From Minisyncoccota bacterium (lineage in GTDB: Bacteria > Patescibacteriota > Minisyncoccia > Phycocordibacterales > UBA9973), in NCBI GenBank assembly GCA_016649835.1, contig JAENWX010000001.1, forward strand, positions 1-47,298: a stretch of 47,298 nucleotides of DNA. The letters are read 5' to 3'. A program made the position numbers and the translations under genes. The notes under the pieces are model-generated. The model was given only the letters and a program-made list of their open reading frames with translations. It was not told where the DNA came from and searched no databases. Positions 5,888-38,185 of this stretch are shown here, piece by piece; the stretch's first letter is position 1, and each line of letters opens with the position of its first letter.

Positions 5888-5915
5888 TTGAATAAATCTA
5901 TTATTTTGTTATAAT
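5888..5915 (+). promoter_or_regulatory. Candidate sigma70-type promoter of the giant gene
   Basis: TTGAAT (5888-5893), 16-nt spacer, TGT-TATAAT extended -10 (5907-5915), about 90 nt upstream of ATG 6004. Confidence 0.45.
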
Positions 5916-6003
5916 AGAAAAGTATTTTAAGGATATCGGCTATCCGAAATATTAAAAATACTAAATCTTGTTCATCCGAGATATTCTTATAAATCTATAC
6001 ATA

Positions 6004-9000
6004 ATGCAACTTCTAGATAATATCATTTCTTTAAATCAAGCAGCCGAAATTTCTGGGTATACTCAGGACTATCTTGGTTATTTAGTACGCATAGGTGAGA
6101 TCAAAGGTGTTAAAAAAGGAGGGGTCTGGTTTATCACTAAAGAAGAGCTTAATGACTATCTATTGAAGAAAAAACCCATTCAAACAGACTCAAACACTAA
6201 AGATTTCTTTCAAAAAATTTGGCACAAAAAAATAGACGTTAAAGATTTCATTTCACATCTCTCTCCTCGTAATTTTTTGGTTTCCGCTCTTATTATATTC
6301 GTGGGACTTTCTTCGGTTGGAGCCTATCTTTTTGAGAAAAATAATTACAATCAAACTTTATCTTCCGCATTTCAATCCTTCGTTCTTTCGGATCATACAG
6401 AAGAGGTGAAAGCAAATAAGATAGGAGATTTACTTTCAAATGTTTCTGACGGACTGGCTTATGGATGGAGTGAATTTACTTTTGAAATTTTAGATGATAT
6501 TAAAAATTCTACAAACACAACAAAAGAATTAGTAGCTTTCGTTGGTGCTGAAGTTGCAAATAGAGTTCAACTTGTCGGAGATAGAATTACTTCCGTTTTA
6601 AATAATACAAAAAAGTTTTTTACTAATACTAAAAAATTTGTTGCAGTAGTGAAGACTCCTGTACCCGATAGGAAAGTTCCACTTGGCTCTTCACTAAAAG
6701 CTTCAGCCATTGATTCACTAAAGTCTGGTAGTGATTCTTTAACCTCTATCTCTACGGGATTAGCCAATGGTTGGATAACATTCACGGATTGGATTTTAAA
6801 TAATATTAAAAATTCAATCATTGGGACAAAAGAATTTGCAGTTTCTGTTGGTGATGGTGCAAAGTTTGTTGGTAATTCAATCACTAATGAAATCACATCT
6901 CAACGAACAGTAATCTCGGCATGGGGACATTCAATCCCAAGTAAAATAGTTTCAATCTGGAATTCAACCAAAAAGTTTGTCATTGATTTTATTTCTCAAC
7001 CACCAAAGTTAATAGTCAAAAGTCCAATAGTTATTCCTCCTTCACTGACAACAACTGCCCCAACAATTAAAGTTGAAGTTCCAGAACCAGAAGCCTCTAG
7101 TATAGCAGGCTCTCAACGACCGGCAACTTCGGCATCGGGAAGTACCACAATAATTCAACGAATTTATGAACAACCACAAACAACAATTATCAATCAAGTT
7201 GACCCAACCCTTTTCTCTAGAATCCAAGGTATTGAATTAGCTCTTCTAAATAATATCTCTCATAACTCTAATCAAACAAATAGAATATACGACAGTGTCG
7301 GTAGAAGTATATCCGGAGCTTCAAACAACATTACCGAAGAAGGAACATTAAATAATACAACAATAAATGATGCTACCCTTGTGAACTTCACTTCTACTGG
7401 AAATGCTTTATTTACCAAAGTTCCAACTCTGGCTCATGCTTTTGACCCTTCTTGGCCATCTGACATTTCAAATGTTTCCAATTCCTCACTCTATATCAAT
7501 CCTGCTTCTTCAGTATTGGATGGCAATCTGCTCGGTCTTGCTGTTGGAGGAGTTGTTAAATTTCTAGTTGATACTGAAGGTGATATTTATGGTAACAGTT
7601 TAATCTTAACTGGTTCTGTTACTCAAGGTAATACTACAGTAGAAAATCTAACAGTTGGTGGAAATATTATTTTAGGTGATGCTTCGACTGACACTTTAAC
7701 CATCAATTCCGCCAATTGGACTTTTGCCAACGATACCAACTTCGCGCTATCAGGAGGCCTTAATGGTTTATCTTTTGATACCGATACTCTTTTCATTGAT
7801 TCGCTCAATCACCGCATCGGCATCGGGACAACGAATCCGGGGAGTAAATTGGAAGTTGCTGGAACTTTTTCACAAACGGGAGCCAATACATTTGGAACAG
7901 GGACAGGGGTAATATCACTTAATGGAGCAACTACTATCACTGGCATCAATACTTTCACAACTGGTACAGGCACTGTAGAATTTAAAAATGTCTCTACCAA
8001 TATTTCTTCTATCAATCCCGTCATTGATACGACGGATGCCACCTCTACTCTATCCATAAACACAGTTACGAACAGACCGACAACCTTTGGGACAGGGCTA
8101 GTGACTATTCCAAATCTATTGATCACAAATTCTCAGGGCAATAATGGAACTATGGGTATTACTTCCAGCGCCACCACGGAAACTATTTTCTCAGTCACGG
8201 GTGCATCTCTAACTTCTGGCACAGGCATTGCGGAGAATATCACCGCCAATGCAAACAATGGGGAGATTACAAAAGGGCACACGATTACTATTACCGATGC
8301 CACTGTTGGCGGGGGCGGATACACTGCATTGTCAATCAGTACTTCGGGAGCTGGGGTTGGCTTGGGCAACAAATATCTTTTAGATATGAATCCGGGAGCA
8401 AATAAAGAAGTTGTGTTTGATTCGGCTGGAGCATTTAGACCAACCACTTCCGTTGCTTCCAACACCAACACTATTGGTTCATCCGATTTTTATTGGAAGA
8501 ATGGATATTTTGACCAAATTACTGCCAACAATATTTCCGGAGTGGTGGTCGGAGGAGCGACTTCATCCACTTCGTGGACCATCGGCTCTACTCAAGTCGC
8601 TGATGTCAATGAAAGTTTAATTTTTTATAGAAATAATCTAGGGGCTGGTAATGCTTCACTTCAATGGAACGCTGGTGCGGGCGACTTGCGGCATTTCACC
8701 GTCAATTATCCGTTTAACGCCACTTACACAGTCAATGATACTTCAATCACGACTGGTGTGAATTTATATTCTGGAAACTTGGTCAACAACACCACCACTG
8801 GCACTCAGAAACTTTTATCTCTGACCAACACCGGTACAGGTACGACAGAAACTGGCATTTATATAGGCAACACCGGCACAGGAACGACCGCTCTTGAAGT
8901 CGCTGGCACGTGGACCAATGGAATAATTACCAACAACAATTCTATTAATGCTGGGAGTGGAGCAATTACCGGTGGAGCAGGAACTTTCACGACCTTAAAT

Positions 9001-12000
9001 GGTAACACTATTACTACCGGTACAGGTATTCTTACAATATCTGCTGGCAAAACTTTAACTATTTCCGACTCAACAACATTTGGAACTAATGCGATTACTT
9101 TGGCAGGAGGAGAAGTAATAACATTCTCACCCGCTAATGCACTTTCACTTCTAACTACAGGAGGAACTTCTGTTACTTTGCCGACCACCGGCACGCTAGC
9201 TACACTCGCTGGTGCAGAAGCTCTTACAAACAAGACTATTGTTGCAGGTAGTAATACGATTTCAGGAATTATCAATGCTAATCTCTCAGGTACAGCAGGA
9301 ATATCAAACGCAAACCTTGCCAACTCTACTATCAGTGGAATATCTCTCGGCGGAACATTACCCACCCTTACTTTTGGCACCCATCTCTCAGGTATTTCTT
9401 ACAATGGTTCAACAGCGGTAACCATCGCAACAGATGCAACTGATGCAAACACTGCAGGAACTATTGTTTCAAGAGATGCATTTGGTAACTTCTCGGCGGG
9501 AGCAATTACTTCCGGCCTCATCAACTCTCAAACCATTTCCTCAAATGCTTCCTTCACTGGTACGGTTAATGCAGTTACTGGTTACAAATTAAACGGCATT
9601 GCTACTTCTGGTAATGTGCTTCGCGGGGATGGTATCAACTTCGTCAATGCTACTCTCGGTGGCTCTGATATTACTGGTGCAGCTCTTACCAAGACCGATG
9701 ACACCAATATTACTCTTACCCTAGGAGGCACTCCAGCGACTTCACTTTTGCGCGCAACGAGCTTGACCCTTGGCTGGAGTGGGTTACTTTCTCCCGCTCG
9801 TGGTGGTACTGGAGTAAACAACGGCACGAACACCCTTACTTTGGGTGGGAACTTAATTACCTCTGGAGCCTTTGCCACCACTCTCACTACCTCTGGAATC
9901 ACAGCTCTCACTTTGCCGACTTCAGGAACTCTCTATAGTACAGCGACGGGTTCCATCACGTCTCTCTCAGTACTCACTTCCGTATCTGATGAAACTGGCT
10001 CGGGGGCTTTGGTCTTTGCAACTTCTCCAACTCTAGTTACTCCAGTATTAGGAGCAGCAACTGCTACAACTGTTAATGCCTTAACTCTAACTGCAGCTGC
10101 TGATGGTTTCACTATCGCAGGTGGAACAGTATCAAGAACATTAACAGTTACAGGTGCTGATGCTTCAATCTCTGGAACACATACAGGTACATCATCTGGA
10201 ACAAACACTGGCGACAATGCTACCAACTCTCAATACTCAGGTCTTGCAGCTTCTAAATTAGATACTGGACTAGCCTTACTTCTTGCTGGAGGGACTATGA
10301 CAGGTGGAATAACTAACTCTACTTCAGTCAATCCCCTCACAACTCTAGCTGAATCTTGGATTGGGCCGAGTTCAACTACTGGTGTTTATTTCAACGGCGG
10401 CAACGTCGGGATTGGTAATACAAGCCCAGATTCAAAATTAAGTATTAATTCTTCAACAGACAATGTAAGTATTATGACTCTTCGTTTTCCTTCAGGTAGT
10501 AATGCTGATAAAGTTGGAATTTTATTTAAGGGGAATGATGGAACTTATAATATAAATTATGCAGAAATGATTGGTGGAGTAGAAAACTGGTCAAATGATG
10601 ATGGGTTCATTGGTTTTAGAACAGCTAAAGCTACTACCTTAGCAGAAAGAATGAGATTAACTTCAAACGGAACTTTGGAAGTTGGTTTTAATTACACAGG
10701 TACAAGTGGAACATTAGCAAATGGAATGATTGTTGAAGGCAACGTCGGCATCGGGACGACGAATCCTGCACAGAAGTTGCATGTTGAAGGTTCTCCTGCG
10801 ATAGGGACAACTGGTACGGAATCAATGTTGTTATTAGGACGTGCCTTGTCTGGCGGGGTTTCATTTAATCAAGCTGCAGCGTTTAAACTTGGCAGATGGC
10901 AAAATGCGGGAGGTACTTATGAATCATTTACTCGGTTAGATATTGCGTTGAAAGATGATGATGCAGTGAACGATTACAGTACAGACGTAACTGTTATGTC
11001 ATTACAAAACAACGGCAACGTCGGCATCGGGACGACGAGTCCAAACGCTAATTTGGAAGTTGTAGGAGCAACAGGAATTATACAAACTATAAATACAACA
11101 GCAGAAGGACTTGGTTATTTCACTACATTAAAATCTGAATATGCTTCTAATACAGGATATTTAGCGTTTGCTGGTGGTGGTGGTACAGGTAAAGTTATTG
11201 GTGGGGCAGCTTATGGAGTGGATACTGTTCTTTTTGCTAATAATACGGAAAGGGTTAGAATATTAAACAACGGCAACGTCGGCATCGGCACGACGAGTCC
11301 ACAAGCGAAATTACAGATTGGTTCAAATATAAATACTATTCCTGCTTCGACTGCATTAAGTACAGTAGGAGGTACAACTATTCGATTTTTGAATGGCGAT
11401 GGTAATGCTGATTATGGTTCATATTTAGCAAGTGGTGGAACAGCACAACTTACTCTTGGTTCAAGATATGCTTCCATTGATACAGATGTGTTAACTGTAA
11501 ATAACGGCAACGTCGGCATCGGGACGACGGGGCCAGGGGCGAAGTTGGATGTCGTAGGAACATCTGTTGCTGGTGGCGCAGAAGGAATATATGTAAGTAA
11601 CACCACTTCAGGTAATGCAAACAAAGCGCTTCTGGGGGTTACAAGTGCCACATTCTCTTATGGCAGTTTGGGTGGTAATGAGACCGTGTTATTCAACGCG
11701 GCGACATCGCCGATATCATTGGTTACGGCGGATGCCCAACCAATAAAATTCATTACGAATTACGCAGAGGCGATGAGGATACAATCAAACGGCAACGTCG
11801 GCATCGGGACGACGGCACCAGGAGAAAAACTTGAAGTAAATGGAAAAATTAAAGTTTTAGGTGCATTTGGGTCTATTATAGGATACAGGTCATTTGGTTC
11901 AAATTTTAGTATGGATAGCAGTGGAGTTTATACTACGACAGATACTCATGCTAGTTATGGTTATTCAGGTATGGTGGCATCTTGGGGGTCACTTCATTTT

Positions 12001-15000
12001 TTTGCTAATGAAGTAGCAACAACGGCAGGTCAAACAATTACACCATCTGAAAAAATGACAATATTAGGAGCATCAGGCAACGTCGGCATCGGGACGACGA
12101 ATCCGGTGAGCGCTTTGAATGTTGCAGGTACAACAGGATTAACATGGGGAAATGGTAGTTCGCCATCAAAAGGTTTACTGACCGTTGGTTCTCAGGGTAC
12201 GGGAGGAAGTTCTTTGTTCGTTAACACCCCTGGGTATGCATCAACATTTGGTGCTGGGTTTGGGGTTGATGGAACTTTTAGCGGGTCTACTGCAACAATA
12301 AATTTGAAAGCATTTGGAATATTTCCAGGAGATACTGGTTGGGGGTCAAACTTAACATTTTCTACAACCTTAGATAATACTCTCAATGAGAGAATGAGGA
12401 TGGATAAGAACGGCAACGTCGGCATCGGGACGACGGGGCCGACAGCTAAATTAGAGGTTGGAGGTAATTTTATTGGTTCAGCACCAGTTGATGCTATTGT
12501 AATAAGAGCATTAACTGATGGACAGTATCAAGGAGGATTTATAAATTGGAAAGCTAACATTGCTTCCAGTAACTTTTCTTTAAGTAAGATATATGGAGGG
12601 AGAGATAATGTAGAAGCTTCATCTAAATTAGGATTTTTTACTAATAGTGATATTTATAATGTTGCTGACCTATCTTCTGAAAAAATGACTATTTTAGGAA
12701 ACGGCAACGTCGGCATCGGGACGACGAGTCCAGGGTCAAAACTTGATGTGAATGGAACTATCGCTGTTAGACAATCTAGCAATGGAACAAGTGGGACACC
12801 TTTGGAAACCATAGGACTGCTTGGAACTAACAGCTTGGGAAATACTGGTATTCCTATGCCTTCCATAAATTTTGTAAACTCTTGGACTACTAACAATAAT
12901 TCATGGATGAATTTTCATGTTCGTAATAACACTATTGATACTGTTGCAATGACTCTTCTATATAACGGCAACGTCGGCATCGGGACGACGGCACCGATGT
13001 ATAAATTAGATTTGGGCAACACATCACTTGATAGTAATACATTGAGATTTGGTGTTGGGACACGGAATTCAACTGGTGCACAGTATCCTGCCAAAATAGA
13101 TTTATATGTATATGACGCTAATCCTGTTAATCAATATTTAAGATTTTATGCCCCAAACGGTAATCCAAGTGGTGCGACAGAAGCTGATAGACAAACATTG
13201 GGAATGGTCATCAATGGAAACGGCAACGTCGGCATCGGGACGACGAGTCCTGCGACACAAATGCATATTGTTGGCGTGGGTCAAAGAACCGCAGCTTTAA
13301 CTGATGCGGGCGCTAAAGGCTCAACACTTTTTCTTGAGGATCCAACAAGTGATACCGGAACCGGTGGTGCTATAACTTTTGGCGGTGGAGCAGCGAATGG
13401 TAGTGTGCCACAAGCAGCAATAAAACTTCTACTATCTAATGGAGGAGCGAATGGTACGGGTGACCTTGCTTTCTCCACTCGTAATGTGGCGTCAGATGTA
13501 GCTCTAACAGAAAGGATGAGAATATTAAATAACGGCAACGTCGGCATCGGGACGGTGGGACCGGGGGCATTGTTGCATCTTGGCAAAGCAGGGAGTCTTA
13601 ACGAATCTGATACTGCGTTTGACTTAGCCGACTCTGATACTCTGCTTAAATTGGAAAACACTGGTCCATCTTATGGCTCAGAAACAGCTTTGTCTTTAGG
13701 TGCAACGGTTTCTTCTGCCTACAGGCCAGCTGGACTCATTACGGGTAAATTTTGGGGACCCTCCGACTTTAACAGTGGACGTCTCGGATTCTCAACATCA
13801 AATTCTGGCACACTTGGCTTGCGTATGGTGATTGATGAAACTGGCAACGTCGGCATCGGGACGACGAGTCCACAAGTTCCATTAACTATTTATGGCTCTT
13901 CTGGAAATGTTGATATAAATGTAGGGAGTAGAAATGGAGTAGCGACTGGAAAAGCATTAGTATTAAGATATAATTTAACTGATGACTATGGACAGATTGC
14001 TAGTTATGATTATGCAACAGGTGCAAAAAATTTAGTTATTAACCCAATTGGTGGCAACGTCGGCATCGGGACGACGGCACCACAAGCCAAGCTGACTATA
14101 AAGGGTAATCAATTATTTGCGGGTAATCCCGATATTGGTTCTTACGGGAAGTTAGAAGCTGTCTATGATGGAAACATTGCTACTTACGGCACAGCTGCGA
14201 GTATAGATTTTTATCGTCCGATAGCAACATACGGTAATGAAGGAGAAATTCGTTTTAGCACCAGTCCAGGAGTAGGTGGTGTATCAACTCCAACACAGAG
14301 AATGGTAATAGATAAGAATGGCAACGTCGGCATCGGGATGACGGCACCGGGGGCGAAGTTGGATGTTGTATACCCAGGTACTATCGGAACATCTTTAACA
14401 ACTTTAAGGGCATTTGGATATGATGCAGATAGTTATTTTAGTGTGTCAAATGACGCAAATAATTCAGCAAATGTTGCGCTTTACAGGTCTGATACAATAA
14501 AGATGTTTGAGGTTCTTGGTCATACCGGTAAAGCATATTTTAACGGCAACGTCGGCATCGGGACGACGGGGCCGAGTGGCAAACTCGATGTTGCTGGTGG
14601 TACGGCATATTTCTCTGGTCTAAGTACAGCCGCGCGTCAAGTGATTGGTCTTTCTAGTGATGGAGTTACAAATCAAATTCAATCAACTTATCTAGGTGCT
14701 TCTAGCTTCGTGCCTCTGGCGTTTCAAGTTGGTGGGGGGGAAAAGGTCAGAATATTAACAAACGGCAACGTCGGCATCGGGACGACGGGGCCGACGTATA
14801 AATTAGAAGTGAACGGAGGAGCCACTTCCCCTTTATCTGTTTATTCAAGCAGCGATTATCAGTTAGGGCTAAGGAATACAGGAGATGCTGGTGGTTGGTG
14901 GCTTAAGAGCTATGGTGCGGGAGCATTTGCTTTACATGAAAATGGAATTGGAGATAAATTAACTTTTGATGATAGTGCAACTGGAAATGTGTATTTTCAA

Positions 15001-16026
15001 AACATAGGCAACGTCGGCATCGGGACGACGAATCCGAGTACAAATAAATTGGTTGTCGTCGGAGATATAAGAGTTGGAACAACTGGTACAGATGGTTGTA
15101 TACAAAGATTCGATGGTACAGCTCTCACCGGTTCTTGTTCATCAGATATTAGATTAAAGAAAGACATTAATTCTATCACAGGAGTTTTAGAAAACTTTGT
15201 TAACCTAAATCCAGTTACTTACAAATGGAGAGCTGATGAGTACCCAGAGAGAGGATTTGGTACAGGTATGGTTACAGGTTTAATTGCTCAAGAAGTAGAA
15301 GGTATCTTTCCTGAATTAGTAAACAAAGACAGTCAGGACTTCTTTACAGTAGACTACGGAGTGAATTTACAAATGCTATCCATACAAGCGATTAAGGAAC
15401 TCAATTTGAAAGTGGAAGATTTGTCTTCGCTTGATATAAAAAATCCTACTTCATTTGGATCTCTTATTAAATATTTCTTAGCCGATATTAGTAATGGCTT
15501 AGAGAAGATTTTTGTTAAAGAGGTAAATACTGACACTTTGTGTGTTTACGATGCTACAGGAGCCAAAACCTGTATAAATAAGGCTCAATTGGACGCATTG
15601 TTGGTTGGTGTCGGAACGACTTATAGTGGTTCCAGTAGTAGTTCAAGTGAGAGTAATGTTGTTCTATCAAGTTTTGATGAGAATTTAGTAAATGCTAAAA
15701 CAGAAGCCAATGGAAAAATAGAAACAGATTATACATCAGAAAGTTGGGGAACATTTAATTCAGCATTAACTCTAGATTTAGAATTATCAGAGACAAATGA
15801 TGAAGAAAAAATTACAAAAACAAATGCCATCAATGATGCAATTTCAGGATTAGAATTATTAATAGTGGAAGAAGTTGTTGATGTACTACCAGAGGAAGTT
15901 CCTCCAGCTGAAGAGCCGGTGGTTGAAGCTCCAGCGGAAGAACCCGTAGTTGAAGCTCCAGCGGAAGAGCCGGTAGTTGAGCCAACAGCAGTTGAAACGA
16001 TAGTTGAGCCAGCTCCAGTAGAATAA
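6004..16026 (+). CDS. Giant (~3340 aa) membrane-anchored repetitive surface protein: HTH-like N-terminus, one TM, and a Peptidase S74-like intramolecular chaperone motif in the C-terminal region
   Basis: One uninterrupted ORF; the track starts at TTG 5968 and the first ATG is 6004. The N-terminus LSLNQAAEISGYTQDYLGYLVRIGEIKGVKKGGVWFITKEEL resembles an excisionase/MerR-type HTH, followed by the TM FLVSALIIFVGLSSVGAYLF. A T/G/S/N-rich region follows, then 17 modules containing NGNVGIGTT. CSSDIRLKKDI...LIAQEVEGIFPELV matches the tail-fibre autoproteolysis motif. Confidence 0.85.
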   Translation: MQLLDNIISLNQAAEISGYTQDYLGYLVRIGEIKGVKKGGVWFITKEELNDYLLKKKPIQTDSNTKDFFQKIWHKKIDVKDFISHLSPRNFLVSALIIFVGLSSVGAYLFEKNNYNQTLSSAFQSFVLSDHTEEVKANKIGDLLSNVSDGLAYGWSEFTFEILDDIKNSTNTTKELVAFVGAEVANRVQLVGDRITSVLNNTKKFFTNTKKFVAVVKTPVPDRKVPLGSSLKASAIDSLKSGSDSLTSISTGLANGWITFTDWILNNIKNSIIGTKEFAVSVGDGAKFVGNSITNEITSQRTVISAWGHSIPSKIVSIWNSTKKFVIDFISQPPKLIVKSPIVIPPSLTTTAPTIKVEVPEPEASSIAGSQRPATSASGSTTIIQRIYEQPQTTIINQVDPTLFSRIQGIELALLNNISHNSNQTNRIYDSVGRSISGASNNITEEGTLNNTTINDATLVNFTSTGNALFTKVPTLAHAFDPSWPSDISNVSNSSLYINPASSVLDGNLLGLAVGGVVKFLVDTEGDIYGNSLILTGSVTQGNTTVENLTVGGNIILGDASTDTLTINSANWTFANDTNFALSGGLNGLSFDTDTLFIDSLNHRIGIGTTNPGSKLEVAGTFSQTGANTFGTGTGVISLNGATTITGINTFTTGTGTVEFKNVSTNISSINPVIDTTDATSTLSINTVTNRPTTFGTGLVTIPNLLITNSQGNNGTMGITSSATTETIFSVTGASLTSGTGIAENITANANNGEITKGHTITITDATVGGGGYTALSISTSGAGVGLGNKYLLDMNPGANKEVVFDSAGAFRPTTSVASNTNTIGSSDFYWKNGYFDQITANNISGVVVGGATSSTSWTIGSTQVADVNESLIFYRNNLGAGNASLQWNAGAGDLRHFTVNYPFNATYTVNDTSITTGVNLYSGNLVNNTTTGTQKLLSLTNTGTGTTETGIYIGNTGTGTTALEVAGTWTNGIITNNNSINAGSGAITGGAGTFTTLNGNTITTGTGILTISAGKTLTISDSTTFGTNAITLAGGEVITFSPANALSLLTTGGTSVTLPTTGTLATLAGAEALTNKTIVAGSNTISGIINANLSGTAGISNANLANSTISGISLGGTLPTLTFGTHLSGISYNGSTAVTIATDATDANTAGTIVSRDAFGNFSAGAITSGLINSQTISSNASFTGTVNAVTGYKLNGIATSGNVLRGDGINFVNATLGGSDITGAALTKTDDTNITLTLGGTPATSLLRATSLTLGWSGLLSPARGGTGVNNGTNTLTLGGNLITSGAFATTLTTSGITALTLPTSGTLYSTATGSITSLSVLTSVSDETGSGALVFATSPTLVTPVLGAATATTVNALTLTAAADGFTIAGGTVSRTLTVTGADASISGTHTGTSSGTNTGDNATNSQYSGLAASKLDTGLALLLAGGTMTGGITNSTSVNPLTTLAESWIGPSSTTGVYFNGGNVGIGNTSPDSKLSINSSTDNVSIMTLRFPSGSNADKVGILFKGNDGTYNINYAEMIGGVENWSNDDGFIGFRTAKATTLAERMRLTSNGTLEVGFNYTGTSGTLANGMIVEGNVGIGTTNPAQKLHVEGSPAIGTTGTESMLLLGRALSGGVSFNQAAAFKLGRWQNAGGTYESFTRLDIALKDDDAVNDYSTDVTVMSLQNNGNVGIGTTSPNANLEVVGATGIIQTINTTAEGLGYFTTLKSEYASNTGYLAFAGGGGTGKVIGGAAYGVDTVLFANNTERVRILNNGNVGIGTTSPQAKLQIGSNINTIPASTALSTVGGTTIRFLNGDGNADYGSYLASGGTAQLTLGSRYASIDTDVLTVNNGNVGIGTTGPGAKLDVVGTSVAGGAEGIYVSNTTSGNANKALLGVTSATFSYGSLGGNETVLFNAATSPISLVTADAQPIKFITNYAEAMRIQSNGNVGIGTTAPGEKLEVNGKIKVLGAFGSIIGYRSFGSNFSMDSSGVYTTTDTHASYGYSGMVASWGSLHFFANEVATTAGQTITPSEKMTILGASGNVGIGTTNPVSALNVAGTTGLTWGNGSSPSKGLLTVGSQGTGGSSLFVNTPGYASTFGAGFGVDGTFSGSTATINLKAFGIFPGDTGWGSNLTFSTTLDNTLNERMRMDKNGNVGIGTTGPTAKLEVGGNFIGSAPVDAIVIRALTDGQYQGGFINWKANIASSNFSLSKIYGGRDNVEASSKLGFFTNSDIYNVADLSSEKMTILGNGNVGIGTTSPGSKLDVNGTIAVRQSSNGTSGTPLETIGLLGTNSLGNTGIPMPSINFVNSWTTNNNSWMNFHVRNNTIDTVAMTLLYNGNVGIGTTAPMYKLDLGNTSLDSNTLRFGVGTRNSTGAQYPAKIDLYVYDANPVNQYLRFYAPNGNPSGATEADRQTLGMVINGNGNVGIGTTSPATQMHIVGVGQRTAALTDAGAKGSTLFLEDPTSDTGTGGAITFGGGAANGSVPQAAIKLLLSNGGANGTGDLAFSTRNVASDVALTERMRILNNGNVGIGTVGPGALLHLGKAGSLNESDTAFDLADSDTLLKLENTGPSYGSETALSLGATVSSAYRPAGLITGKFWGPSDFNSGRLGFSTSNSGTLGLRMVIDETGNVGIGTTSPQVPLTIYGSSGNVDINVGSRNGVATGKALVLRYNLTDDYGQIASYDYATGAKNLVINPIGGNVGIGTTAPQAKLTIKGNQLFAGNPDIGSYGKLEAVYDGNIATYGTAASIDFYRPIATYGNEGEIRFSTSPGVGGVSTPTQRMVIDKNGNVGIGMTAPGAKLDVVYPGTIGTSLTTLRAFGYDADSYFSVSNDANNSANVALYRSDTIKMFEVLGHTGKAYFNGNVGIGTTGPSGKLDVAGGTAYFSGLSTAARQVIGLSSDGVTNQIQSTYLGASSFVPLAFQVGGGEKVRILTNGNVGIGTTGPTYKLEVNGGATSPLSVYSSSDYQLGLRNTGDAGGWWLKSYGAGAFALHENGIGDKLTFDDSATGNVYFQNIGNVGIGTTNPSTNKLVVVGDIRVGTTGTDGCIQRFDGTALTGSCSSDIRLKKDINSITGVLENFVNLNPVTYKWRADEYPERGFGTGMVTGLIAQEVEGIFPELVNKDSQDFFTVDYGVNLQMLSIQAIKELNLKVEDLSSLDIKNPTSFGSLIKYFLADISNGLEKIFVKEVNTDTLCVYDATGAKTCINKAQLDALLVGVGTTYSGSSSSSSESNVVLSSFDENLVNAKTEANGKIETDYTSESWGTFNSALTLDLELSETNDEEKITKTNAINDAISGLELLIVEEVVDVLPEEVPPAEEPVVEAPAEEPVVEAPAEEPVVEPTAVETIVEPAPVE
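10738..15030 (+). repeat. 17 in-frame copies of the GC-rich core GGCAACGTCGGCATCGGGACGACG
   Basis: Core starts at 10738, 11014, 11272, 11506, 11791, 12076, 12412, 12703, 12967, 13222, 13534, 13843, 14053, 14320, 14545, 14764 and 15007. Fourteen copies are identical over 24 nt and three differ by 1-2 nt. Spacings of 210-336 nt are all multiples of 3. Confidence 0.95.
15907..15987 (+). repeat. 27-nt tandem repeat x3 encoding AEEPVVEAP
   Basis: Read directly at the extreme C-terminus of the giant ORF. Confidence 0.85.
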
Positions 16027-16174: not shown

Positions 16175-18508
16175 ATGGAATCAAAAAAAGTAGAATTTTT
16201 TAATAAATTGTCGTTCGTTATATTATTAGTTACAATATTCCTCTCTTTATTTTTCTTCATCCCTTACACTCCAGTAACACTCGAAGCAAGTAAAGGATTT
16301 CTCTTATCTGTCGGAGCAACTCTCTCTTTATTTTTTTGGTTAATTTCTAGACTAGGTGATGGTAAATTTGTATTTCCTAAAGATAAATTGATTTTATTTG
16401 CAATGATTATTCCTTTGGTATTTCTTATTGCATCATTTTTCTCCTCATCTCTTTATATTTCACTTTTTGGTAGTGGCTTTGAAATTGGAACATTTGGGTC
16501 TATGTTAACACTTTTTATTATTTTCTTTTTATCATCAATTTATTTTCAGTCAGAGAAACGTTTATGGTATTTTATAAGGGCTTTGTTTATAGGTGGATTA
16601 ATTTTGGTTTTATTTGAGGTTTTAAGTTTATTTATTGATTTTGACCATATTTTACCAGGATTTTTACAGGGGGTATCCTCTGGCAATCTAGTGGGTAGTT
16701 GGAATAATTTTGCTTTATTGCTTGGTATTATTGTTTTACTAGCAGTCTTTACTATTGAATTATTAAATACAAAGGTAATATTTAAAATAGCACAATATTT
16801 ATTATTATTATTGGGAATATTATTACTTGTTATAATTAATATTTCATTGGTATGGTTATTAGTTGGATTATTTTCTTTGATTATTTTTGTTTACAGTCTA
16901 TCTATACAGCACTCAGGAAACAAAATTATTCAAGGAGAAAGTAATAAAAAAAGATTTCCTTTTATCTCATTGCTTGTTATTTTTATTTCTTTTATTTCCT
17001 TGGTTGGTAGTAATTTAGTAGGTGGTTTTATTTCTAATTATGTAAGTCTTAATAATCTAGATATTCGTCCTTCTATTACTACTACATCTCAAATTGCATA
17101 TAAGGCCATTAAACATAATCCTTTCTTAGGGACTGGTCCAAACACTTTTGTCATTGATTGGGCTCTTTGGCAACCAAAAGATATAGCTCAAACAGTTTTT
17201 TGGAACGTTGATTTTACAAATGGTTATAGTTTATTGACTACTTTTGCTGTAACTACTGGTTTACTTGGTCTTGTCGCAATGTTATTTTTCTTGGTTATAT
17301 ATGTTACAAGAAGTATTCAATCAATTCGCATAGCCTTGCAGAATACACTCTCAAATTATTTCATAATGACGACATTAATGATTTCAATATATTCGTGGAT
17401 TACCGTTATCTTTTATAATCCTAATATTGTAATGTTAATGTTAGCTTTCTGCTCGAGTGGAATGTTGATTGGAATATTAGTTTATAAACAAGCAATTCCA
17501 GTTAAGGATTTTTCTTTCTTATCTGACCCTCGTAATAGTTTCTTCTCTATATTAGGTTTGGTAGTTTTGATGGTTGCTACCGCTTCTTTAACTTATATTT
17601 ATATTGAAAAGTTTACTTCAATTATATATTTTTCTAAAGGTTTAAATAGTACTGGTACCATGGAGTCACTATCTAATTCAGAAGGAATGTTTTTAAGGGC
17701 TATTTCTTTAGATAAAAATGATATTTATTATCGAGCATTATCTCAAGTATATTTAAACCAGATTGGAGTCTTAGCTAATGATAAAACAATTTCTCCAGAT
17801 ATATTAAAATCAAGTCTTCAACAGCTGGTTAATAACGCTCAACAATCGGCTAGTTTAGCTGTAAGCCAAAATCCAAAACAATATCTTAATTATGTAAATC
17901 TTGGCGATATTTATGGCGCCTTGATACCTTTATCGGTTACTAATAGTTATGAGAGTGCTATTGTTGCCTACGATAAAGCTATTATATTAGCTCCTAATAA
18001 TCCATCTATACTTTTAGCAAAAGCTTCGCTTGAATTTGTAAATAAAAATAATAGTGAAGCAAGAAAGTTTATAAAACAAGCTCTTGATTTGAAGGTTAAT
18101 TATATAGATGCGATTTTCCTTTTAGTTCAAATAGAAACAAATGAAGGAAATTTAGCTGAAGCTATTAAACAAGCTGAATATGCAGGAGAAATGGTTCCTA
18201 ATGACCCTACTATTTTCTTTAGATTAGGATTATTAAGATATAATAATAGTGATTACAAAGGCGCTGTCAGTGCCTTTGAGAAAGCTGTTATCTTGAATAA
18301 TAGTTACTTAAATGCTCGTTATTTCCTTGGGCAATCGTATAAAAAAGTTGGGCGAACAAGTGATGCTCTAATACAATTCAATATTCTAAATAAAATTGCT
18401 CCAGATAATCAAGAAATAAAAGATGCCATAAGGTCAATCAATGCACCAGAACTAGAACCAGAACCAGAAACTAGTAGTACAAAACCACCATTAGAAGAAA
18501 AACAATAA
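16175..18508 (+). CDS. Polytopic membrane protein (O-antigen ligase/Wzy-like core suspected) with C-terminal TPR repeats
   Basis: 777 aa with about 12 hydrophobic helices and an NPFLGTGPNTF loop motif. The C-terminal ~270 aa has TPR-like A/Y/L periodicity (AIVAYDKAIILAPNN..., AVSAFEKAVILNNSY...). Confidence 0.5.
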   Translation: MESKKVEFFNKLSFVILLVTIFLSLFFFIPYTPVTLEASKGFLLSVGATLSLFFWLISRLGDGKFVFPKDKLILFAMIIPLVFLIASFFSSSLYISLFGSGFEIGTFGSMLTLFIIFFLSSIYFQSEKRLWYFIRALFIGGLILVLFEVLSLFIDFDHILPGFLQGVSSGNLVGSWNNFALLLGIIVLLAVFTIELLNTKVIFKIAQYLLLLLGILLLVIINISLVWLLVGLFSLIIFVYSLSIQHSGNKIIQGESNKKRFPFISLLVIFISFISLVGSNLVGGFISNYVSLNNLDIRPSITTTSQIAYKAIKHNPFLGTGPNTFVIDWALWQPKDIAQTVFWNVDFTNGYSLLTTFAVTTGLLGLVAMLFFLVIYVTRSIQSIRIALQNTLSNYFIMTTLMISIYSWITVIFYNPNIVMLMLAFCSSGMLIGILVYKQAIPVKDFSFLSDPRNSFFSILGLVVLMVATASLTYIYIEKFTSIIYFSKGLNSTGTMESLSNSEGMFLRAISLDKNDIYYRALSQVYLNQIGVLANDKTISPDILKSSLQQLVNNAQQSASLAVSQNPKQYLNYVNLGDIYGALIPLSVTNSYESAIVAYDKAIILAPNNPSILLAKASLEFVNKNNSEARKFIKQALDLKVNYIDAIFLLVQIETNEGNLAEAIKQAEYAGEMVPNDPTIFFRLGLLRYNNSDYKGAVSAFEKAVILNNSYLNARYFLGQSYKKVGRTSDALIQFNILNKIAPDNQEIKDAIRSINAPELEPEPETSSTKPPLEEKQ

Positions 18509-18526
18509 TAATTCTTTAAATTAGAA

Positions 18527-20280: not shown

Positions 20281-20955
20281 ATGAGAAAACAACCTATTAT
20301 TACAGGTGAGTATTATCACATATATAACCGTGGAGTTGATAAACGAGATGTTTTTAGTGATAAAATGGATATTAGACGTTTTGTTGAAAGTATAAATGAA
20401 TTTAATCAAGTTGATGTAATAGGAAGTTTGATTAATTTAAGAAAATCTAAAAATATCCAGAAAGGGCCTAAGGCCCTTTCTGAGGAACCATTAGTTGTTA
20501 TAATGGTATATTGTTTGAATCCAAATCATTTTCACTTTGTCTTGAAGCAATTAGAAGATGGAGGAATATCAAAGTTTATGCAAAAATTACAAAGTGGATA
20601 TACTTCTTATTTTAATGTAAAAAATTCTAGATCCGGTTCACTATTCCAGGGAACTTTTAAAGCACAACATATAGGTAGTGAAAATTATTTTAATAAAACT
20701 CTCGGATATGTAAATAAAAATTATCAAGTTCATAATATTCCAGAGGATAAAAAAGAATTAGTTTTTGCCAGTGATTATGAATATGAAAATAATAATTTTA
20801 AAATTGTTTCAAAAATAGAGGGAAATAGAATTTTAGAAATTTTTGGTGGAGTTGGTGGATTTAAAAGACATTCAGATGAAATAGTTGAGATTATTAGGAA
20901 GGAAAGAGGCAAGACTTCTCTTTTAGAAGATGAAGAATTACCAGAAAGGGCCTAA
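20281..20955 (+). CDS. HUH/Y1 transposase, IS200-like, REP-associated (RAYT-like)
   Basis: 224 aa. YHIYNRGVDKRDVF, HUH motif in NPNHFHFVLK, GYTSYFN, and GSLFQGTFKAQHI (compare the G.WQ.RF..H pattern of RAYTs). The palindrome occurs upstream, inside, and at the stop codon. Confidence 0.7.
   Translation: MRKQPIITGEYYHIYNRGVDKRDVFSDKMDIRRFVESINEFNQVDVIGSLINLRKSKNIQKGPKALSEEPLVVIMVYCLNPNHFHFVLKQLEDGGISKFMQKLQSGYTSYFNVKNSRSGSLFQGTFKAQHIGSENYFNKTLGYVNKNYQVHNIPEDKKELVFASDYEYENNNFKIVSKIEGNRILEIFGGVGGFKRHSDEIVEIIRKERGKTSLLEDEELPERA
20458..20482. repeat. REP-like palindrome, copy 2, in frame inside the transposase ORF
   Basis: CAGAAAGGGCC-taa-GGCCCTTTCTG, read in frame as QKGPKALSE. Confidence 0.85.
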
Positions 20956-32221: not shown

Positions 32222-32251
32222 TTAAGAATTAATAATTACGAATTAAGAATT
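32219..32251. repeat. AATTAAG/AATTACG heptamer repeats between murE and murD
   Basis: TAATTAAGAATTAATAATTACGAATTAAGAATT, starting in the murE stop codon. Confidence 0.7.
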
Positions 32252-32259
32252 TAAAAAAA

Positions 32260-33723: not shown

Positions 33724-33743
33724 AATGTAATATGGATTTAGAT

Positions 33744-33860
33744 CCCGTTAGAAATCGCGGTCACGATTTCTTGGGTTGGTGTATAATTAGTTTGTAATTA
33801 ATTTTAAATAAAAATATGTTAGATTCAAAAAATAATGATCGCGACCTATTTCTAAACGGG
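33744..33860 (+). promoter_or_regulatory. Inverted-repeat cassette between murD and murC, overlapping the annotated murC start
   Basis: Arms CCCGTTAGAAATCGCGGTCACGAT (33744-33767) and ATCGCGACCTATTTCTAAACGGG (33838-33860). The interior contains GTGTATAAT. Orientation relative to the downstream gene matches the valS cassette. Confidence 0.6.
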
Positions 33861-38179: not shown

Positions 38180-38185
38180 GGTTTA

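What the first reader, a model, noticed from the sequence alone, without database searches (positions are those of the whole stretch)
5968..16026. 10-kb gene for a membrane-tethered modular fibre with a cytoplasmic HTH-like head and a phage-tail-fibre autoprocessing motif
**Domain order** in one uninterrupted ORF:
- An excisionase/MerR-like HTH sequence.
- A single TM helix.
- A duplicated ~100-aa unit (GLAYGWSEFTFEILDDIKNS... / GLANGWITFTDWILNNIKNS...).
- About 1000 aa of T/G/S/N-rich beta-helix-like sequence.
- 17 modules built around NGNVGIGTT.P..KL.V.G.
- The motif CSSDIRLKKDI...GLIAQEVEGIFPELV...VDY, which matches the intramolecular chaperone / Peptidase S74 domain of phage tail spikes and fibres. 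In those proteins the domain trimerises the fibre and then cleaves itself off at the Ser.
- About 200 further residues after that domain, ending in (AEEPVVEAP)x3.

**Context.** No other phage gene is adjacent. The gene also looks more GC-rich than its neighbours. A DNA-binding-type fold tethered to a giant extracellular fibre is an odd combination. It could be a surface adhesin used for host-cell attachment (inference).
Basis: partly seen in the sequence, partly recalled or inferred. Interest (0 to 1): 0.65.

Follow-up and report, generated by a model that had tools for sequence, protein, structure and literature searches.

The report
Giant HTH-anchored surface fibre, CPR bacterium
This 10-kb gene of an ultrasmall (CPR/Patescibacteria) bacterium encodes a membrane-anchored, phage-tail-fibre-like surface fibre with a self-cleaving assembly domain and a DNA-binding-type head inside the cell, and that head-plus-anchor turns out to be a widespread, apparently undescribed module of giant surface proteins in these bacteria.

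Summary
One uninterrupted ORF (true start ATG 6004, stop 16026; 3340 aa) encodes these parts in order:
- a MerR/excisionase-type winged HTH;
- one TM helix;
- a duplicated ~100-aa unit;
- ~1000 aa of T/G/S/N-rich sequence;
- 18 (not 17) GNVGIGTT modules, homologous to solved Bdellovibrio MAT fibres and to phage tail-fibre families;
- a Peptidase_S74 chaperone domain with the SDxxxK dyad (S3047/K3052);
- a tail that is conserved in relatives.

Neighbouring genes are housekeeping genes of a ~31% GC CPR bacterium.

The "odd" HTH-plus-fibre combination is recurrent. An HTH+TM profile finds 622 representatives at E<=1e-10. Of the top 150, 149 carry 1-3 HTHs at the extreme N-terminus, usually followed by a single TM, in proteins of up to 5630 aa.

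In relatives the same HTH-TM module is a stand-alone ~121-aa gene placed just upstream of a homologous giant fibre gene. All versions share a conserved leader with ATCCGAGAT direct repeats at -62 and -31.

Best reading: a trimeric host-attachment fibre whose cytoplasmic HTH probably binds its own leader. This function is inferred, not shown.

Separately, the 24-nt module core is nucleotide-identical in 14 modules and in hundreds of unrelated cellular and viral fibre genes. This is unexplained.

The parts
5888..5915 (+). Promoter-like site: TTGAAT, 16 nt, TG-extended TATAAT. It is conserved in position and sequence upstream of related HTH-TM genes.
   Evidence: 10/12 match, TG extension; alignment of 18 loci.
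5942..5984 (+). Conserved leader with two direct repeats: ATCCGAAATAT at 5942 and ATCCGAGATAT at 5974. They sit at -62 and -30 from the ATG, 32 nt apart here and 31 nt apart in most relatives. It is a candidate operator for the HTH, or an RNA leader element.
   Evidence: these are the only 0- and 1-mismatch hits in the window; the motif sits at -31/-62 in about 20 related loci..
6004..16026 (+). Coding sequence of the giant fibre protein (3340 aa; ATG start).
   Evidence: N-termini of homologues.
6004..6177 (+). Cytoplasmic winged helix-turn-helix of the HTH_17 / MerR-excisionase type (aa 1-58), followed by a lysine-rich linker (aa 59-90).
   Evidence: It is the most conserved part among relatives.
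6274..6333 (+). Single transmembrane helix (aa 91-110). The N-in orientation is inferred from the basic flank on the N-terminal side.
   Evidence: Hydropathy; coordinates. A single TM follows the HTH in 87 of 96 informative relatives.
6394..7020 (+). Juxtamembrane duplicated ~100-aa unit (GLAYGWSEFTFEILDDIKNS / GLANGWITFTDWILNNIKNS). It is followed by a Pro/Thr-rich linker from about nt 7000 to 7200.
   Evidence: E 2e-12. The unit is shared with P0001, P0002, P0003, P0129 and P0130.
7261..10383 (+). T/G/S/N-rich, charge-poor shaft region (aa 420-1460). It includes one degenerate capping-loop motif, HRIGIGTT, at nt 7810-7833. The fold is not established.
   Evidence: Composition; repeat family D4; no Pfam or PDB hit; weak phrog_5906 hit.
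10396..15093 (+). Array of 18 fibre modules of 70-112 aa. Each carries the capping-loop motif G-N-V-G-I-G-T-T-x-P-x-x-K-L-x-V-x-G. In 14 modules the motif is encoded by the identical 24-mer GGCAACGTCGGCATCGGGACGACG.
   Evidence: Homology to MAT fibre structures 8oml, 8ond, 8on4 and 8ojn and to PHROG tail-fibre families 9942 and 18345.
15097..15141 (+). Predicted mature fibre tip with a conserved Cys pair (C3032, C3045). It ends ...GSCS. The predicted cleavage lies between S3046 and S3047 (nt 15141/15142).
   Evidence: Cys positions; conservation. The cleavage position is inferred from the SDxxxK rule cited in PMC10769870.
15142..15501 (+). Peptidase_S74 / intramolecular chaperone auto-processing domain (aa 3047-3166). 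The catalytic residues are S3047 and K3052 within SDIRLK. The GLIAQEV motif is at nt 15277-15297.
   Evidence: 52.5 bits; model (pLDDT above 90 over the core); Foldseek hits 7dc3, 3gw6 and 3gud.
15535..15615 (+). Conserved post-chaperone mini-domain: a beta-hairpin plus helix with C3180 and C3190 (LCVYDATGAKTCINKAQLDALL).
   Evidence: Conserved in homologues; modelled with pLDDT ~90.
15616..16023 (+). Low-complexity acidic, Pro-rich C-terminal tail. It ends in a 27-nt tandem repeat, (AEEPVVEAP)n, at nt 15902-16011.
   Evidence: Relatives have analogous P/T/E-rich tails.

Best explanation
The gene encodes a type-II (N-in, C-out) membrane protein of a CPR/Patescibacteria cell.

**Layout**
- The first ~58 residues fold as a MerR/excisionase-type winged HTH and stay in the cytoplasm.
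- One TM helix anchors the chain.
- The remaining ~3200 residues are exported.

**Assembly of the fibre**
- The C-terminal S74 intramolecular-chaperone domain nucleates trimerisation of the fibre.
- The fibre is built from 18 MAT/phage-tail-fibre-type beta-helical modules bounded by GNVGIGTT 'capping loops'.
- The chaperone then cuts itself off at S3047 using the Ser-Lys dyad.
- This leaves a disulfide-stapled tip on a fibre roughly 150-200 nm long.
- The fibre serves to contact or bind the surface of a host cell.

**Role of the HTH**
- The HTH-TM head is a family-wide module of giant CPR surface proteins.
- It most likely binds DNA, specifically the two ATCCGAGAT direct repeats in the gene's own leader.
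- The fibre, or in relatives a separate 121-aa HTH-TM partner, would then be a membrane-tethered autoregulator and anchor, comparable to ToxR.

**What is shown and what is inferred**
- Shown here: domain identities, topology-compatible hydropathy, homology of the modules to solved trimeric fibres, the S74 motifs and fold, the recurrence and gene-fission pattern of the HTH-TM module, and the conserved leader repeats.
- Inferred: trimer formation, cleavage, length, host binding, DNA binding and regulation.
For: **Fibre body**
- The modules match solved Bdellovibrio MAT trimer fibres: 8oml E 2e-6 and 8ond E 5e-6.
- They also match PHROG tail-fibre families: phrog_9942 E 2e-65.
- The module motif equals the MAT 'capping loop' consensus V-G-G/N-pi-x-x-P-x-x-x-L.

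**S74 domain**
- Pfam scores 52.5 bits.
- The SDIRLK motif fits the SDxxxK dyad.
- The fold matches MyRF ICA and the endosialidase and GA-1 chaperones.
- Both flanking Cys pairs are conserved.

**HTH**
- The isolated domain scores 33.3 bits and the model has pLDDT 86.
- The nearest structures are DNA-bound wHTHs: TraN, RacA, BldC, Xis/RdfS and MerR.

**Recurrence of the architecture**
- 622 representatives match at E<=1e-10.
- 149 of the top 150 have the HTH at the N-terminus.
- 87 of 96 informative ones have a single TM after it.
- Named members are Paceibacterota, Parcubacteria, Portnoybacteria and Patescibacteria.
- Six more HTH-TM-fibre fusions occur in Saccharibacteria, Nomurabacteria, Doudnabacteria and other loci that were found independently through the module DNA.

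**Gene fission (Rosetta-stone pattern)**
- A stand-alone ~121-aa HTH-TM gene lies directly upstream of giant fibre genes.
- One of these fibre genes is homologous to the window protein, E 4e-43.

**Leader and context**
- The promoter and the ATCCGAGAT repeats at -62/-31 are conserved in about 20 loci. In the window the motif is found only there.
- The gene sits among housekeeping genes and has host-like codon usage.
Against: - There is no experimental or multimer-model evidence for trimerisation or cleavage.
- About 1000 aa of the shaft have no detectable homologue.
- No receptor-binding domain could be named.
- The leader repeats sit at a fixed distance from the ATG. They overlap a weak hairpin with one covarying pair, so they could act at the RNA level instead of as an operator.
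- A regulator fused stoichiometrically to a structural protein is unusual.
- The same HTH-TM head is fused to many unrelated ectodomains. That fits a generic anchor or adaptor as well as it fits a regulator.
- The taxonomic assignment rests on the names of homologues and on gene content, not on a marker phylogeny.
Confidence: 0.62

Rival explanations
1. The HTH-like head does not bind DNA. It is a cytoplasmic stopper or adaptor. It would fix the N-in topology, keep the long fibre from being pulled out of the membrane, or dock it to a cytoplasmic or cytoskeletal partner, as the HTH of RodZ binds MreB or CbpM binds CbpA. The conserved leader would then be an unrelated promoter or RNA element.
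For: - The same head is attached to many unrelated giant ectodomains.
- It occurs in 1-3 tandem copies.
- MerR-like folds that bind proteins appear among the structural neighbours: 3ucs CbpM and 9dvi DafA.
- The recognition helix carries conserved acidic and aromatic residues (S-G-Y-x-x-D-Y-L-G) rather than a basic face.
Against: - The top structural neighbours are all DNA complexes.
- The basic wing (K-G-x-K-K-G) and R29 are conserved.
- Direct repeats conserved at helical-phase spacing sit in the family's own leader.
- A stand-alone 121-aa version exists with only a ~22-aa external tail.
Confidence: 0.28
2. The gene is a phage or prophage-derived tail-fibre gene, that is, a virion component rather than a cellular surface structure.
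For: - There are strong PHROG tail-fibre hits.
- The S74 chaperone is typical of tail spikes and fibres.
- The 24-nt module core is shared with many viral contigs.
- An IS200-like transposase lies 4 kb downstream.
Against: - No other phage gene lies in the 47 kb; the flanks are LeuRS, MurJ, LepA and the dcw cluster.
- The protein has an N-terminal cytoplasmic domain and a TM anchor instead of a virion-attachment domain.
- GC3 outside the cores equals that of host genes.
- The same architecture recurs across CPR genomes.
Confidence: 0.04
3. The protein works like MyRF. S74-driven trimerisation and self-cleavage would release the DNA-binding head from the membrane so that it can act as a soluble transcription factor.
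For: - MyRF is the best structural match for the C-terminal domain.
- The protein combines a DNA-binding-type domain, a TM helix and an S74 domain.
Against: - The HTH and the S74 site are separated by the TM helix and about 2900 residues.
- With a single TM they lie on opposite sides of the membrane.
- Cleavage at S3047 releases only the C-terminal ~294 aa, not the HTH.
Confidence: 0.02
4. The ORF is an assembly artefact, with repeats collapsed or joined in a chimeric order.
For: - The gene contains 18 related modules.
- Several homologues end at contig ends, which shows that such genes do break assemblies.
Against: - The longest exact repeat is 35 nt.
- Outside the core the modules are only 60-75% identical, and their spacings are variable but in frame.
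- The frame stays open for 10 kb with conserved N- and C-terminal domains.
- Full-length relatives of similar size exist: P0241 at 4310 aa, and the L375 ORF at >=3237 aa.
Confidence: 0.04

Closest known systems
Bdellovibrio bacteriovorus MAT (mosaic adhesive trimer) fibres, S74 subgroup such as Bd3182 (PMC10769870)
   Same: - It is a cell-encoded, phage-like surface fibre.
- Its modules are homologous to solved MAT structures.
- It has the same capping-loop motif.
- It has a C-terminal S74 chaperone/protease with the SDxxxK motif.
- The presumed role is recognition of another cell's surface by a bacterium that lives on other bacteria.
   Different: - It is about three times longer, with 18 modules.
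- It has no signal peptide and no conserved ~130-aa beta-rich N-terminal domain.
- Instead it has a cytoplasmic wHTH, a TM anchor and a duplicated juxtamembrane unit.
- It comes from a monoderm-type CPR organism, not from a diderm predator.
- Extra conserved sequence follows the chaperone.
Phage tail spikes and fibres with C-terminal intramolecular chaperone (K1F/K1E endosialidase 3gw6, GA-1 neck appendage 3gud, T5 L-shaped tail fibre)
   Same: - The S74 fold and the Ser-Lys motif are shared.
- The modular fibre body matches PHROG tail-fibre families.
   Different: - It is not in a phage genome.
- It is anchored in a cell membrane by its N-terminus rather than to a baseplate.
- It is far longer.
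Myelin regulatory factor (MyRF) ICA domain, 7dc3
   Same: - It is the best structural match for the C-terminal domain.
- MyRF also combines a DNA-binding domain, a TM helix and an S74-type domain in one chain.
   Different: In MyRF the DNA-binding domain and the ICA domain are adjacent on the same side of the membrane, and cleavage frees the transcription factor. Here they lie on opposite sides, and cleavage cannot free the HTH.
ToxR/CadC/TcpP-type membrane-bound one-component transcription regulators
   Same: - The layout is a cytoplasmic N-terminal winged-helix DNA-binding domain, a single TM helix and an external domain.
- ToxR-type regulators bind direct repeats while tethered to the membrane (from general knowledge).
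   Different: - The DNA-binding domain is of the HTH_17/MerR-excisionase type, not the OmpR type.
- The external part is either a giant structural fibre or, in stand-alone relatives, only about 22 aa.
- No regulation has been demonstrated.
MerR/excisionase-like wHTH proteins TraN (pIP501), RacA, BldC and Xis/RdfS
   Same: - The fold is the same (TM-score 0.64-0.70).
- TraN has two tandem copies, as most family members do.
- Xis and BldC bind direct repeats head-to-tail.
- RacA tethers DNA to the cell envelope.
   Different: Those proteins are soluble. Here the domain is fused to a TM helix and a surface protein.
RodZ (HTH - TM - extracytoplasmic domain)
   Same: It is a bitopic protein with an N-terminal cytoplasmic HTH. 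RodZ shows that such an HTH can serve as a protein-protein anchor to MreB rather than bind DNA (from general knowledge).
   Different: - The RodZ HTH is of the Xre type.
- There is no sequence relationship.
- The external domain is different.
Conserved-motif recombination in T-even tail-fibre adhesin genes (His boxes and gp38 glycine-rich motifs; Tetart 1996/1998 as cited in PMC3157838)
   Same: Short, highly conserved motifs between variable segments of adhesin genes are the sites where recombinational shuffling occurs. This is a candidate precedent for the frozen 24-nt module core.
   Different: - Here the identical 24-mer is shared across CPR, DPANN, proteobacterial and viral contigs.
- Recombination at the core has not been shown.

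Membership tests
Peptidase_S74 / intramolecular chaperone auto-processing (ICA) domain | Profile match above the curated threshold | tested here: met
   PF13884 at aa 3047-3106, 52.5 bits against a threshold of 22, E 6e-14.
Peptidase_S74 / intramolecular chaperone auto-processing (ICA) domain | Catalytic Ser-Lys dyad in the S-D-x-x-x-K motif | tested here: met
   S3047-D-I-R-L-K3052. S, D and K are at least 90% conserved in 62 homologues. The motif definition comes from PMC10769870.
Peptidase_S74 / intramolecular chaperone auto-processing (ICA) domain | Chaperone fold (beta core plus long helices) | tested here: met
   AF2 monomer model, pLDDT 94-98 over the core. Foldseek: 7dc3 E 1e-5, 3gw6 E 8e-3, 3gud E 2e-2.
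Peptidase_S74 / intramolecular chaperone auto-processing (ICA) domain | Trimerisation-dependent self-cleavage that releases the chaperone | not testable with these tools
   This needs expression of wild type against S3047A, or a multimer model. Only monomer prediction was available.
MAT (mosaic adhesive trimer) superfamily | Fibre body homologous to MAT beta-helix modules, with the capping-loop motif V-G-G/N-pi-x-x-P-x-x-x-L | tested here: met
   Hits to 8oml, 8ond, 8on4 and 8ojn. There are 18 motif copies.
MAT (mosaic adhesive trimer) superfamily | Signal peptide followed by a conserved ~130-aa beta-rich N-terminal domain | tested here: not met
   - The N-terminus is a wHTH, a basic linker and a TM helix, with no signal peptide.
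- The related split-gene fibres in L375, L369 and L373 do start with a signal-anchor and an FNxQINYQGKLT domain.
- That domain was not compared directly with the Bdellovibrio MAT N-terminal domain.
MAT (mosaic adhesive trimer) superfamily | Surface display and binding of another cell's surface | not testable with these tools
   Inferred only from topology and homology.
HTH_17 (MerR/excisionase-type winged helix) | Profile match above the curated threshold | tested here: met
   The isolated aa 1-62 score 33.3 bits against a threshold of 27. Within the whole protein the score is 24.9 bits. 39 of 46 family members match.
HTH_17 (MerR/excisionase-type winged helix) | Winged-helix fold: beta-strand, helix, turn, helix, beta-hairpin wing, helix | tested here: met
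   The model has elements E7-9, H10-17, H21-29, E35-38, E41-45 and H46-56 with pLDDT 86. Neighbours are TraN, RacA, BldC, RdfS, Xis and MerR.
HTH_17 (MerR/excisionase-type winged helix) | DNA binding | not testable with these tools
   The evidence is indirect only: conserved ATCCGAGAT direct repeats in the family's own leader.
ToxR-like membrane-tethered transcription regulators | OmpR-type winged-helix DNA-binding domain | tested here: not met
   The domain is HTH_17. No Trans_reg_C hit was found.
ToxR-like membrane-tethered transcription regulators | Cytoplasmic DNA-binding domain, single TM helix and external domain | tested here: met
   This is a resemblance in layout, not membership.
MyRF-type membrane-bound transcription factor released by ICA cleavage | DNA-binding domain and ICA domain adjacent on the same side of the membrane, so that cleavage frees the DNA-binding domain | tested here: not met
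   The HTH is at aa 1-58, the TM helix at aa 91-110 and the S74 site at aa 3047. There is only one hydrophobic span.
Phage tail fibre (virion component) | Encoded within a phage or prophage structural module | tested here: not met
   All neighbours in the 47 kb are housekeeping or cell-envelope genes.

The most novel reading that the evidence does not exclude
The giant fibre is at once an adhesin and a membrane-tethered transcription factor. Its cytoplasmic wHTH would bind the ATCCGAGAT direct repeats in its own leader. In relatives a separate 121-aa HTH-TM partner would do the same. Fibre assembly or host contact at the far end would then feed back on expression. This would be one member of a CPR-wide, so far undescribed class of HTH-tethered giant surface proteins. 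The class has 622 or more representatives at 50% identity, with proteins up to 5630 aa. It may be a general outside-in signalling or anchoring device of episymbiotic bacteria.
Probability: 0.2. Interest if true: 0.85.

Novelty: new variant of a known kind. Interest (0 to 1): 0.7.

Why it matters
**Host attachment in CPR bacteria.** How ultrasmall CPR/Patescibacteria episymbionts recognise and hold their hosts is largely unknown. So far mainly type IV pili are implicated (PMC12206443). A phage-tail-fibre/MAT-like, S74-processed fibre on the order of 150-200 nm long is a concrete and testable candidate for host contact.

**A module that can be tested.** The N-terminal HTH-TM head is a recurrent module of giant CPR surface proteins. 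Three features make its function experimentally approachable:
- It has a gene-fission counterpart placed next to fibre genes.
- It has a conserved leader with direct repeats.
- Fused versions occur in Saccharibacteria, a group that has cultivated members.

The obvious experiments are EMSA and mutants.

**A frozen DNA word.** The nucleotide-identical 24-mer at the module core is shared with hundreds of unrelated cellular and viral fibre genes. It points to a DNA-level constraint on adhesin genes, possibly a recombination anchor, that seems not to have been described.

Tried and rejected
- **Third homologue search.** The word-indexed search with the HTH alignment returned only 7 short hits and added nothing.
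- **Exact look-up of the window protein.** It is not on record, so the source sample is unknown.
- **Context of the closest N-terminal homologue, P0001.** It is not syntenic and the gene is cut by the contig end.
- **Rfam.** There was no hit on the leader or on the ORF-poor stretch downstream of the stand-alone HTH genes.
- **The ORF-poor stretch.** It turned out to be a giant ORF that the ORF listing omits because it runs off the locus.
- **Alternative genetic code (table 25).** I tested it as an explanation for the short 121-aa proteins and rejected it. The stops are TAA/TAG.
- **RNA hairpin in the leader.** The evidence is a 5-bp stem at -2.4 kcal/mol with one covarying pair (5 GC, 5 UA, 4 broken). 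This is too weak to decide between an RNA element and a DNA element.
- **Middle 1000 aa, juxtamembrane region and C-terminal tail.** None has a Pfam or PDB sequence hit.
- **blastn of the gene against all 386 fetched loci.** Apart from the coding region of the N-terminal homologue, nothing longer than about 50-100 nt around the cores matched. There is no sign of recent transfer of whole modules.
- **P0133.** This 3100-aa haemagglutinin-like repeat protein from the profile search is a spurious match.
- **MyRF-like release of the HTH.** Rejected on topology.
- **GC-richness as a sign of foreign origin.** Rejected, because GC3 without the cores is 0.242.

Full report
**1. The ORF and its setting**

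The window holds one uninterrupted ORF, 5968..16026 on the + strand.

The start is better placed at ATG 6004, giving 3340 aa:
- Close relatives begin at the aligned methionine, MQLFKK.ISL or MESLKKVISL.
- The 36 nt between TTG 5968 and the ATG lie in a non-coding leader that is conserved in about 20 related loci.

Every other gene in the 47 kb is a housekeeping or cell-envelope gene. These are Sua5, a DUF5671 protein, LeuRS, a TPR membrane protein, MurJ, an IS200-like transposase, LepA, DivIC, glutaredoxin, another class I tRNA synthetase, TsaD, four Mur ligases, two PBPs and a class II tRNA synthetase.

Genomic GC is about 27-34%. Named homologues of the N-terminus come from Paceibacterota, Nomurabacteria, Parcubacteria, Portnoybacteria and 'Patescibacteria group'. 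The host is therefore a peptidoglycan-making CPR bacterium, and no phage module is nearby.

**2. The fibre body**

- Eighteen modules, not 17, carry N-V-G-I/M-G within G-N-V-G-I-G-T-T-x-P-x-x-K-L-x-V-x-G. They are spaced 70-112 aa apart. A degenerate copy sits at aa 603.
- The module region matches solved structures of Bdellovibrio MAT fibres: 8oml E 2e-6, 8ond E 5e-6, plus 8on4 and 8ojn.
- It also matches PHROG tail-fibre families: phrog_9942 E 2e-65 and phrog_18345 E 1e-32.
- The motif corresponds to the 'capping loop' consensus V-G-G/N-pi-x-x-P-x-x-x-L that bounds the ligand clefts of the intertwined trimeric beta-helix in MAT proteins (PMC10769870).
- The ~1000-aa T/G/S/N-rich stretch before the modules has the stated composition but no detectable homologue. 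Its 'beta-helix-like' nature remains an assumption.
- Bd3182 is 922 aa and ~550 A long. Scaling from that figure suggests a fibre on the order of 150-200 nm. This is an inference.

**3. The C-terminus**

- Pfam Peptidase_S74 matches aa 3047-3106, at 52.5 bits against a threshold of 22.
- The motif S3047-D-I-R-L-K3052 fits the SDxxxK dyad.
- An AF2 model of aa 3020-3225, built on 62 sequences, has pLDDT 94-98 over the core.
- Its best structural matches are the MyRF ICA domain (7dc3, E 1e-5), the endosialidase chaperone (3gw6) and the GA-1 chaperone (3gud).

The Pfam model covers only the first ~60 residues of this fold.

After the chaperone come two further elements:
- a small beta-hairpin plus helix with two cysteines (LCVYDATGAKTCINKAQLDALL). 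It is conserved in the closest homologues and modelled with confidence;
- a low-complexity acidic, Pro-rich tail with the 27-nt repeat.

The protein has only four cysteines. Two lie just before the cleavage site and two lie in the mini-domain, and both pairs are conserved. This fits an extracellular location.

Cleavage between S3046 and S3047 would release ~294 aa and expose a tip ending ...GSCS. This is inferred and not shown.

**4. The N-terminus**

- Scanned alone, aa 1-62 score 33.3 bits against HTH_17, whose threshold is 27. Within the whole protein the score is 24.9 bits.
- The AF2 model has pLDDT 86 and a winged-helix topology.
- Foldseek ranks DNA-bound MerR/excisionase-type domains first, with TM-scores of 0.64-0.70. 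They are TraN of pIP501 (itself a tandem of two such domains), RacA, BldC, RdfS and Xis excisionases, and MerR N-domains.
- One hydrophobic span follows, at aa 91-110. It is preceded by a lysine-rich linker, so the HTH should be cytoplasmic and the rest external.
- The ~100-aa duplication after the TM helix is real (E 2e-12).

**5. The combination is not a one-off**

A profile of the HTH+TM region was searched exhaustively against 1.84 billion representatives. It found 3632 proteins at E<=1e-3 and 622 at E<=1e-10.

Of the best 150:
- 149 carry the HTH at the extreme N-terminus;
- 123 carry two tandem copies;
- 87 of the 96 that have enough sequence after the HTH have a TM helix within 150 aa, almost always the only one;
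- 26 are longer than 1000 aa, and the longest is 5630 aa.

The ectodomains differ widely. P0241 (4310 aa) repeats the full plan: three HTHs, a TM helix, about 31 fibre motifs and an S74-like end.

Six further HTH-TM-fibre ORFs turned up in loci that had been fetched for a different reason, the module DNA word. They come from Saccharibacteria, Nomurabacteria, Doudnabacteria and others. I found no paper describing this architecture. The literature search was limited.

**6. Gene fission**

A metagenome scan with the HTH+TM alignment returned 29 loci.

- About 17 encode a stand-alone 120-122-aa protein. It consists of the HTH (about 75-80% identical to the window's), one TM helix and a conserved ~22-aa tail..SAVTSDGESLKI... 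The stops are genuine TAA/TAG codons, not recoded UGA.
- Where downstream sequence exists, the next or next-but-one gene is a giant fibre ORF with its own signal-anchor. It is >=3237 aa in L375 and >=2443 aa in L369.
- The L375 fibre is homologous to the window protein, at 33% identity over 598 aa and E 4e-43.
- A secreted fn3 protein gene is conserved upstream.

This fused-versus-adjacent pattern ties the HTH-TM module functionally to the fibres.

**7. A conserved leader**

Upstream of the stand-alone genes and the fused genes alike, a promoter-like TTGAAT-N16/17-TGnTATAAT is conserved. It is followed by a leader of fixed length that carries ATCCGAGAT at -62 and -31 from the ATG.

In the window the sites are at 5942 (one mismatch) and 5974 (exact). 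No other hit with 0 or 1 mismatch exists in the 47 kb, and hits with 2 mismatches are at chance level.

A spacing of 31 nt equals three helical turns. Direct repeats are what Xis- and BldC-type proteins bind. I therefore favour autoregulatory DNA binding.

An RNA role is not excluded:
- A 5-bp stem (CGAGA/TCTCG) spans the first repeat. It has one covarying pair (5 GC, 5 UA, 4 broken) but little energy.
- Rfam has no match.

**8. Mechanism and rivals**

The best-supported picture is a type-II membrane-anchored trimeric fibre. It is assembled from the C-terminus by the S74 chaperone, which then removes itself. It is displayed for contact with a host cell, as MAT fibres are on Bdellovibrio. Its cytoplasmic wHTH is a family-wide module that probably binds its own leader.

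| Rival | Assessment |
|---|---|
| The HTH is a non-DNA adaptor or stopper, like the RodZ HTH | Plausible; confidence about 0.28 |
| A phage virion gene | Contradicted by context, N-terminal anchor and host-like GC3 |
| MyRF-like release of the HTH | Contradicted by topology |
| Assembly artefact | Longest exact repeat is 35 nt |

**9. An unexplained DNA-level feature**

In the window gene:
- Fourteen of the 18 modules encode GNVGIGTT with the identical 24-mer GGCAACGTCGGCATCGGGACGACG. The others differ by 1-6 nt.
- All eight codons end in G or C, in a genome whose genes have GC3 of 0.19-0.25.
- Flanking conserved residues (Pro, Leu, Gly) use varied, AT-rich codons.

In public collections:
- The exact 24-mer occurs in at least 120 stretches of GTDB species genomes. 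These include CPR, DPANN archaea, Gammaproteobacteria, Elusimicrobia, Omnitrophica, Bdellovibrionales and others. The scan was truncated.
- It also occurs in at least 120 viral contigs.
- In 343 unique copies the synonymous information falls to about 0.1-0.2 bit immediately outside the 24 nt.

In a codon-unbiased viral sample of the peptide motif:
- The canonical word makes up about 2% of motifs (4 of 244). About 3e-5 is expected from the third-base composition, by my calculation from the counts.
- It is the top attractor among G/C-ending alternatives: 29 motifs lie within 2 changes, against a median of 4.

No longer similarity links the window gene to any of these loci. Recombination at conserved adhesin motifs, as described for T-even fibres (PMC3157838), is a candidate explanation, possibly combined with biased gene conversion. 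It is untested.

**10. Verdict**

The fibre/S74 part is a new, very large member of a known kind. The HTH-TM head, with its gene-fission partner and its conserved leader, is a new variant that deserves follow-up. The frozen 24-mer is a separate puzzle.

Noticed in passing
window 10396-15093 (14 exact copies, e.g. 10741-10764, 11017-11040, 12415-12438); loci L001-L240: - The 24-nt core GGCAACGTCGGCATCGGGACGACG encodes GNVGIGTT. All its codons end in G or C, and it contains the 5-bp inverted repeat CGTCG..CGACG.
- It is nucleotide-identical in 14 of the 18 modules, although the flanks use AT-rich synonymous codons.
- The same word occurs in at least 120 genome stretches (CPR, DPANN, proteobacteria and others) and in at least 120 viral contigs.
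- Synonymous conservation collapses right outside the 24 nt.
- It makes up about 2% of motifs in a codon-unbiased viral sample, against about 3e-5 expected.
- No explanation has been established. The candidates are a recombination anchor or biased gene conversion.
   Followed up: partly
window 5888-6003; L358-L382 upstream of the HTH genes: - A promoter (TTGAAT / TG-TATAAT) is conserved, followed by a leader of fixed length.
- The leader carries ATCCGAGAT direct repeats at -62 and -31 from the start codon of both stand-alone and fused HTH-TM genes.
- Some loci (L363, L365) carry three or more copies.
- Whether this is an operator or an RNA element is undecided.
   Followed up: partly
L364, L366-L371, L373-L382 (e.g. 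L375 10001-10363; giant ORF from L375 10499): A three-gene arrangement recurs in related metagenome contigs. It consists of a secreted Cys-rich/fn3 protein, then a stand-alone ~121-aa HTH-TM protein with the conserved tail SAVTSDGESLKI, then a giant fibre gene (>=3237 aa) with its own signal-anchor and an FNxQINYQGKLT N-terminal domain.
   Followed up: partly
proteins P0153, P0158, P0230, P0236, P0165, P0176, P0194 and others: - A large sister group has two tandem N-terminal HTHs, one TM helix and non-fibre giant ectodomains of 2000-5630 aa.
- These ectodomains share conserved blocks (e.g. 'FTWGVLAINxNKSIYL', 'DAPDISPYLYLLGPL').
- Their C-terminal regions are repeat-rich and of unknown function.
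   Followed up: no
L358, L361, L370, L372, L373 at +67 of the HTH gene; window ~6070: The reverse complement of the leader motif (ATCTCGGAT) recurs inside the coding sequence, at the codons for the conserved Y-L-G-Y of the recognition helix. The leader and this coding segment are therefore complementary. This could be coincidence or a long-range RNA pairing.
   Followed up: no
window 20281-20955; L357 4461-5111: An IS200-like Y1 transposase gene lies about 4 kb downstream of the fibre gene. Another lies about 5 kb from the closest N-terminal homologue, in an otherwise non-syntenic contig.
   Followed up: no
window 16175-20215: Directly downstream lies a 777-aa protein with only C-terminal TPR hits. 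Its first ~580 aa have no Pfam hit, and the stretch is T-rich over A (AT skew about -0.2). It is followed by MurJ. A possible envelope or glycosylation link to the Thr/Ser-rich fibre was not examined.
   Followed up: no
window 30791-45977: A dcw-like cluster with four Mur-ligase paralogues and two class B PBPs shows that this CPR organism makes peptidoglycan. The fibre must therefore pass through a cell wall, and the Pro/Thr-rich linker at ~7000-7200 may serve this.
   Followed up: no
L032 (MAG labelled Methanoregula), L008, L026, L034, L042, L046, L067, L072, L075: Fibre-module DNA, and in L032 an HTH-TM-fibre ORF, occurs in contigs binned as archaea (methanogens and DPANN). This could be real distribution, viral contigs or mis-binning. 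It was not resolved.
   Followed up: no
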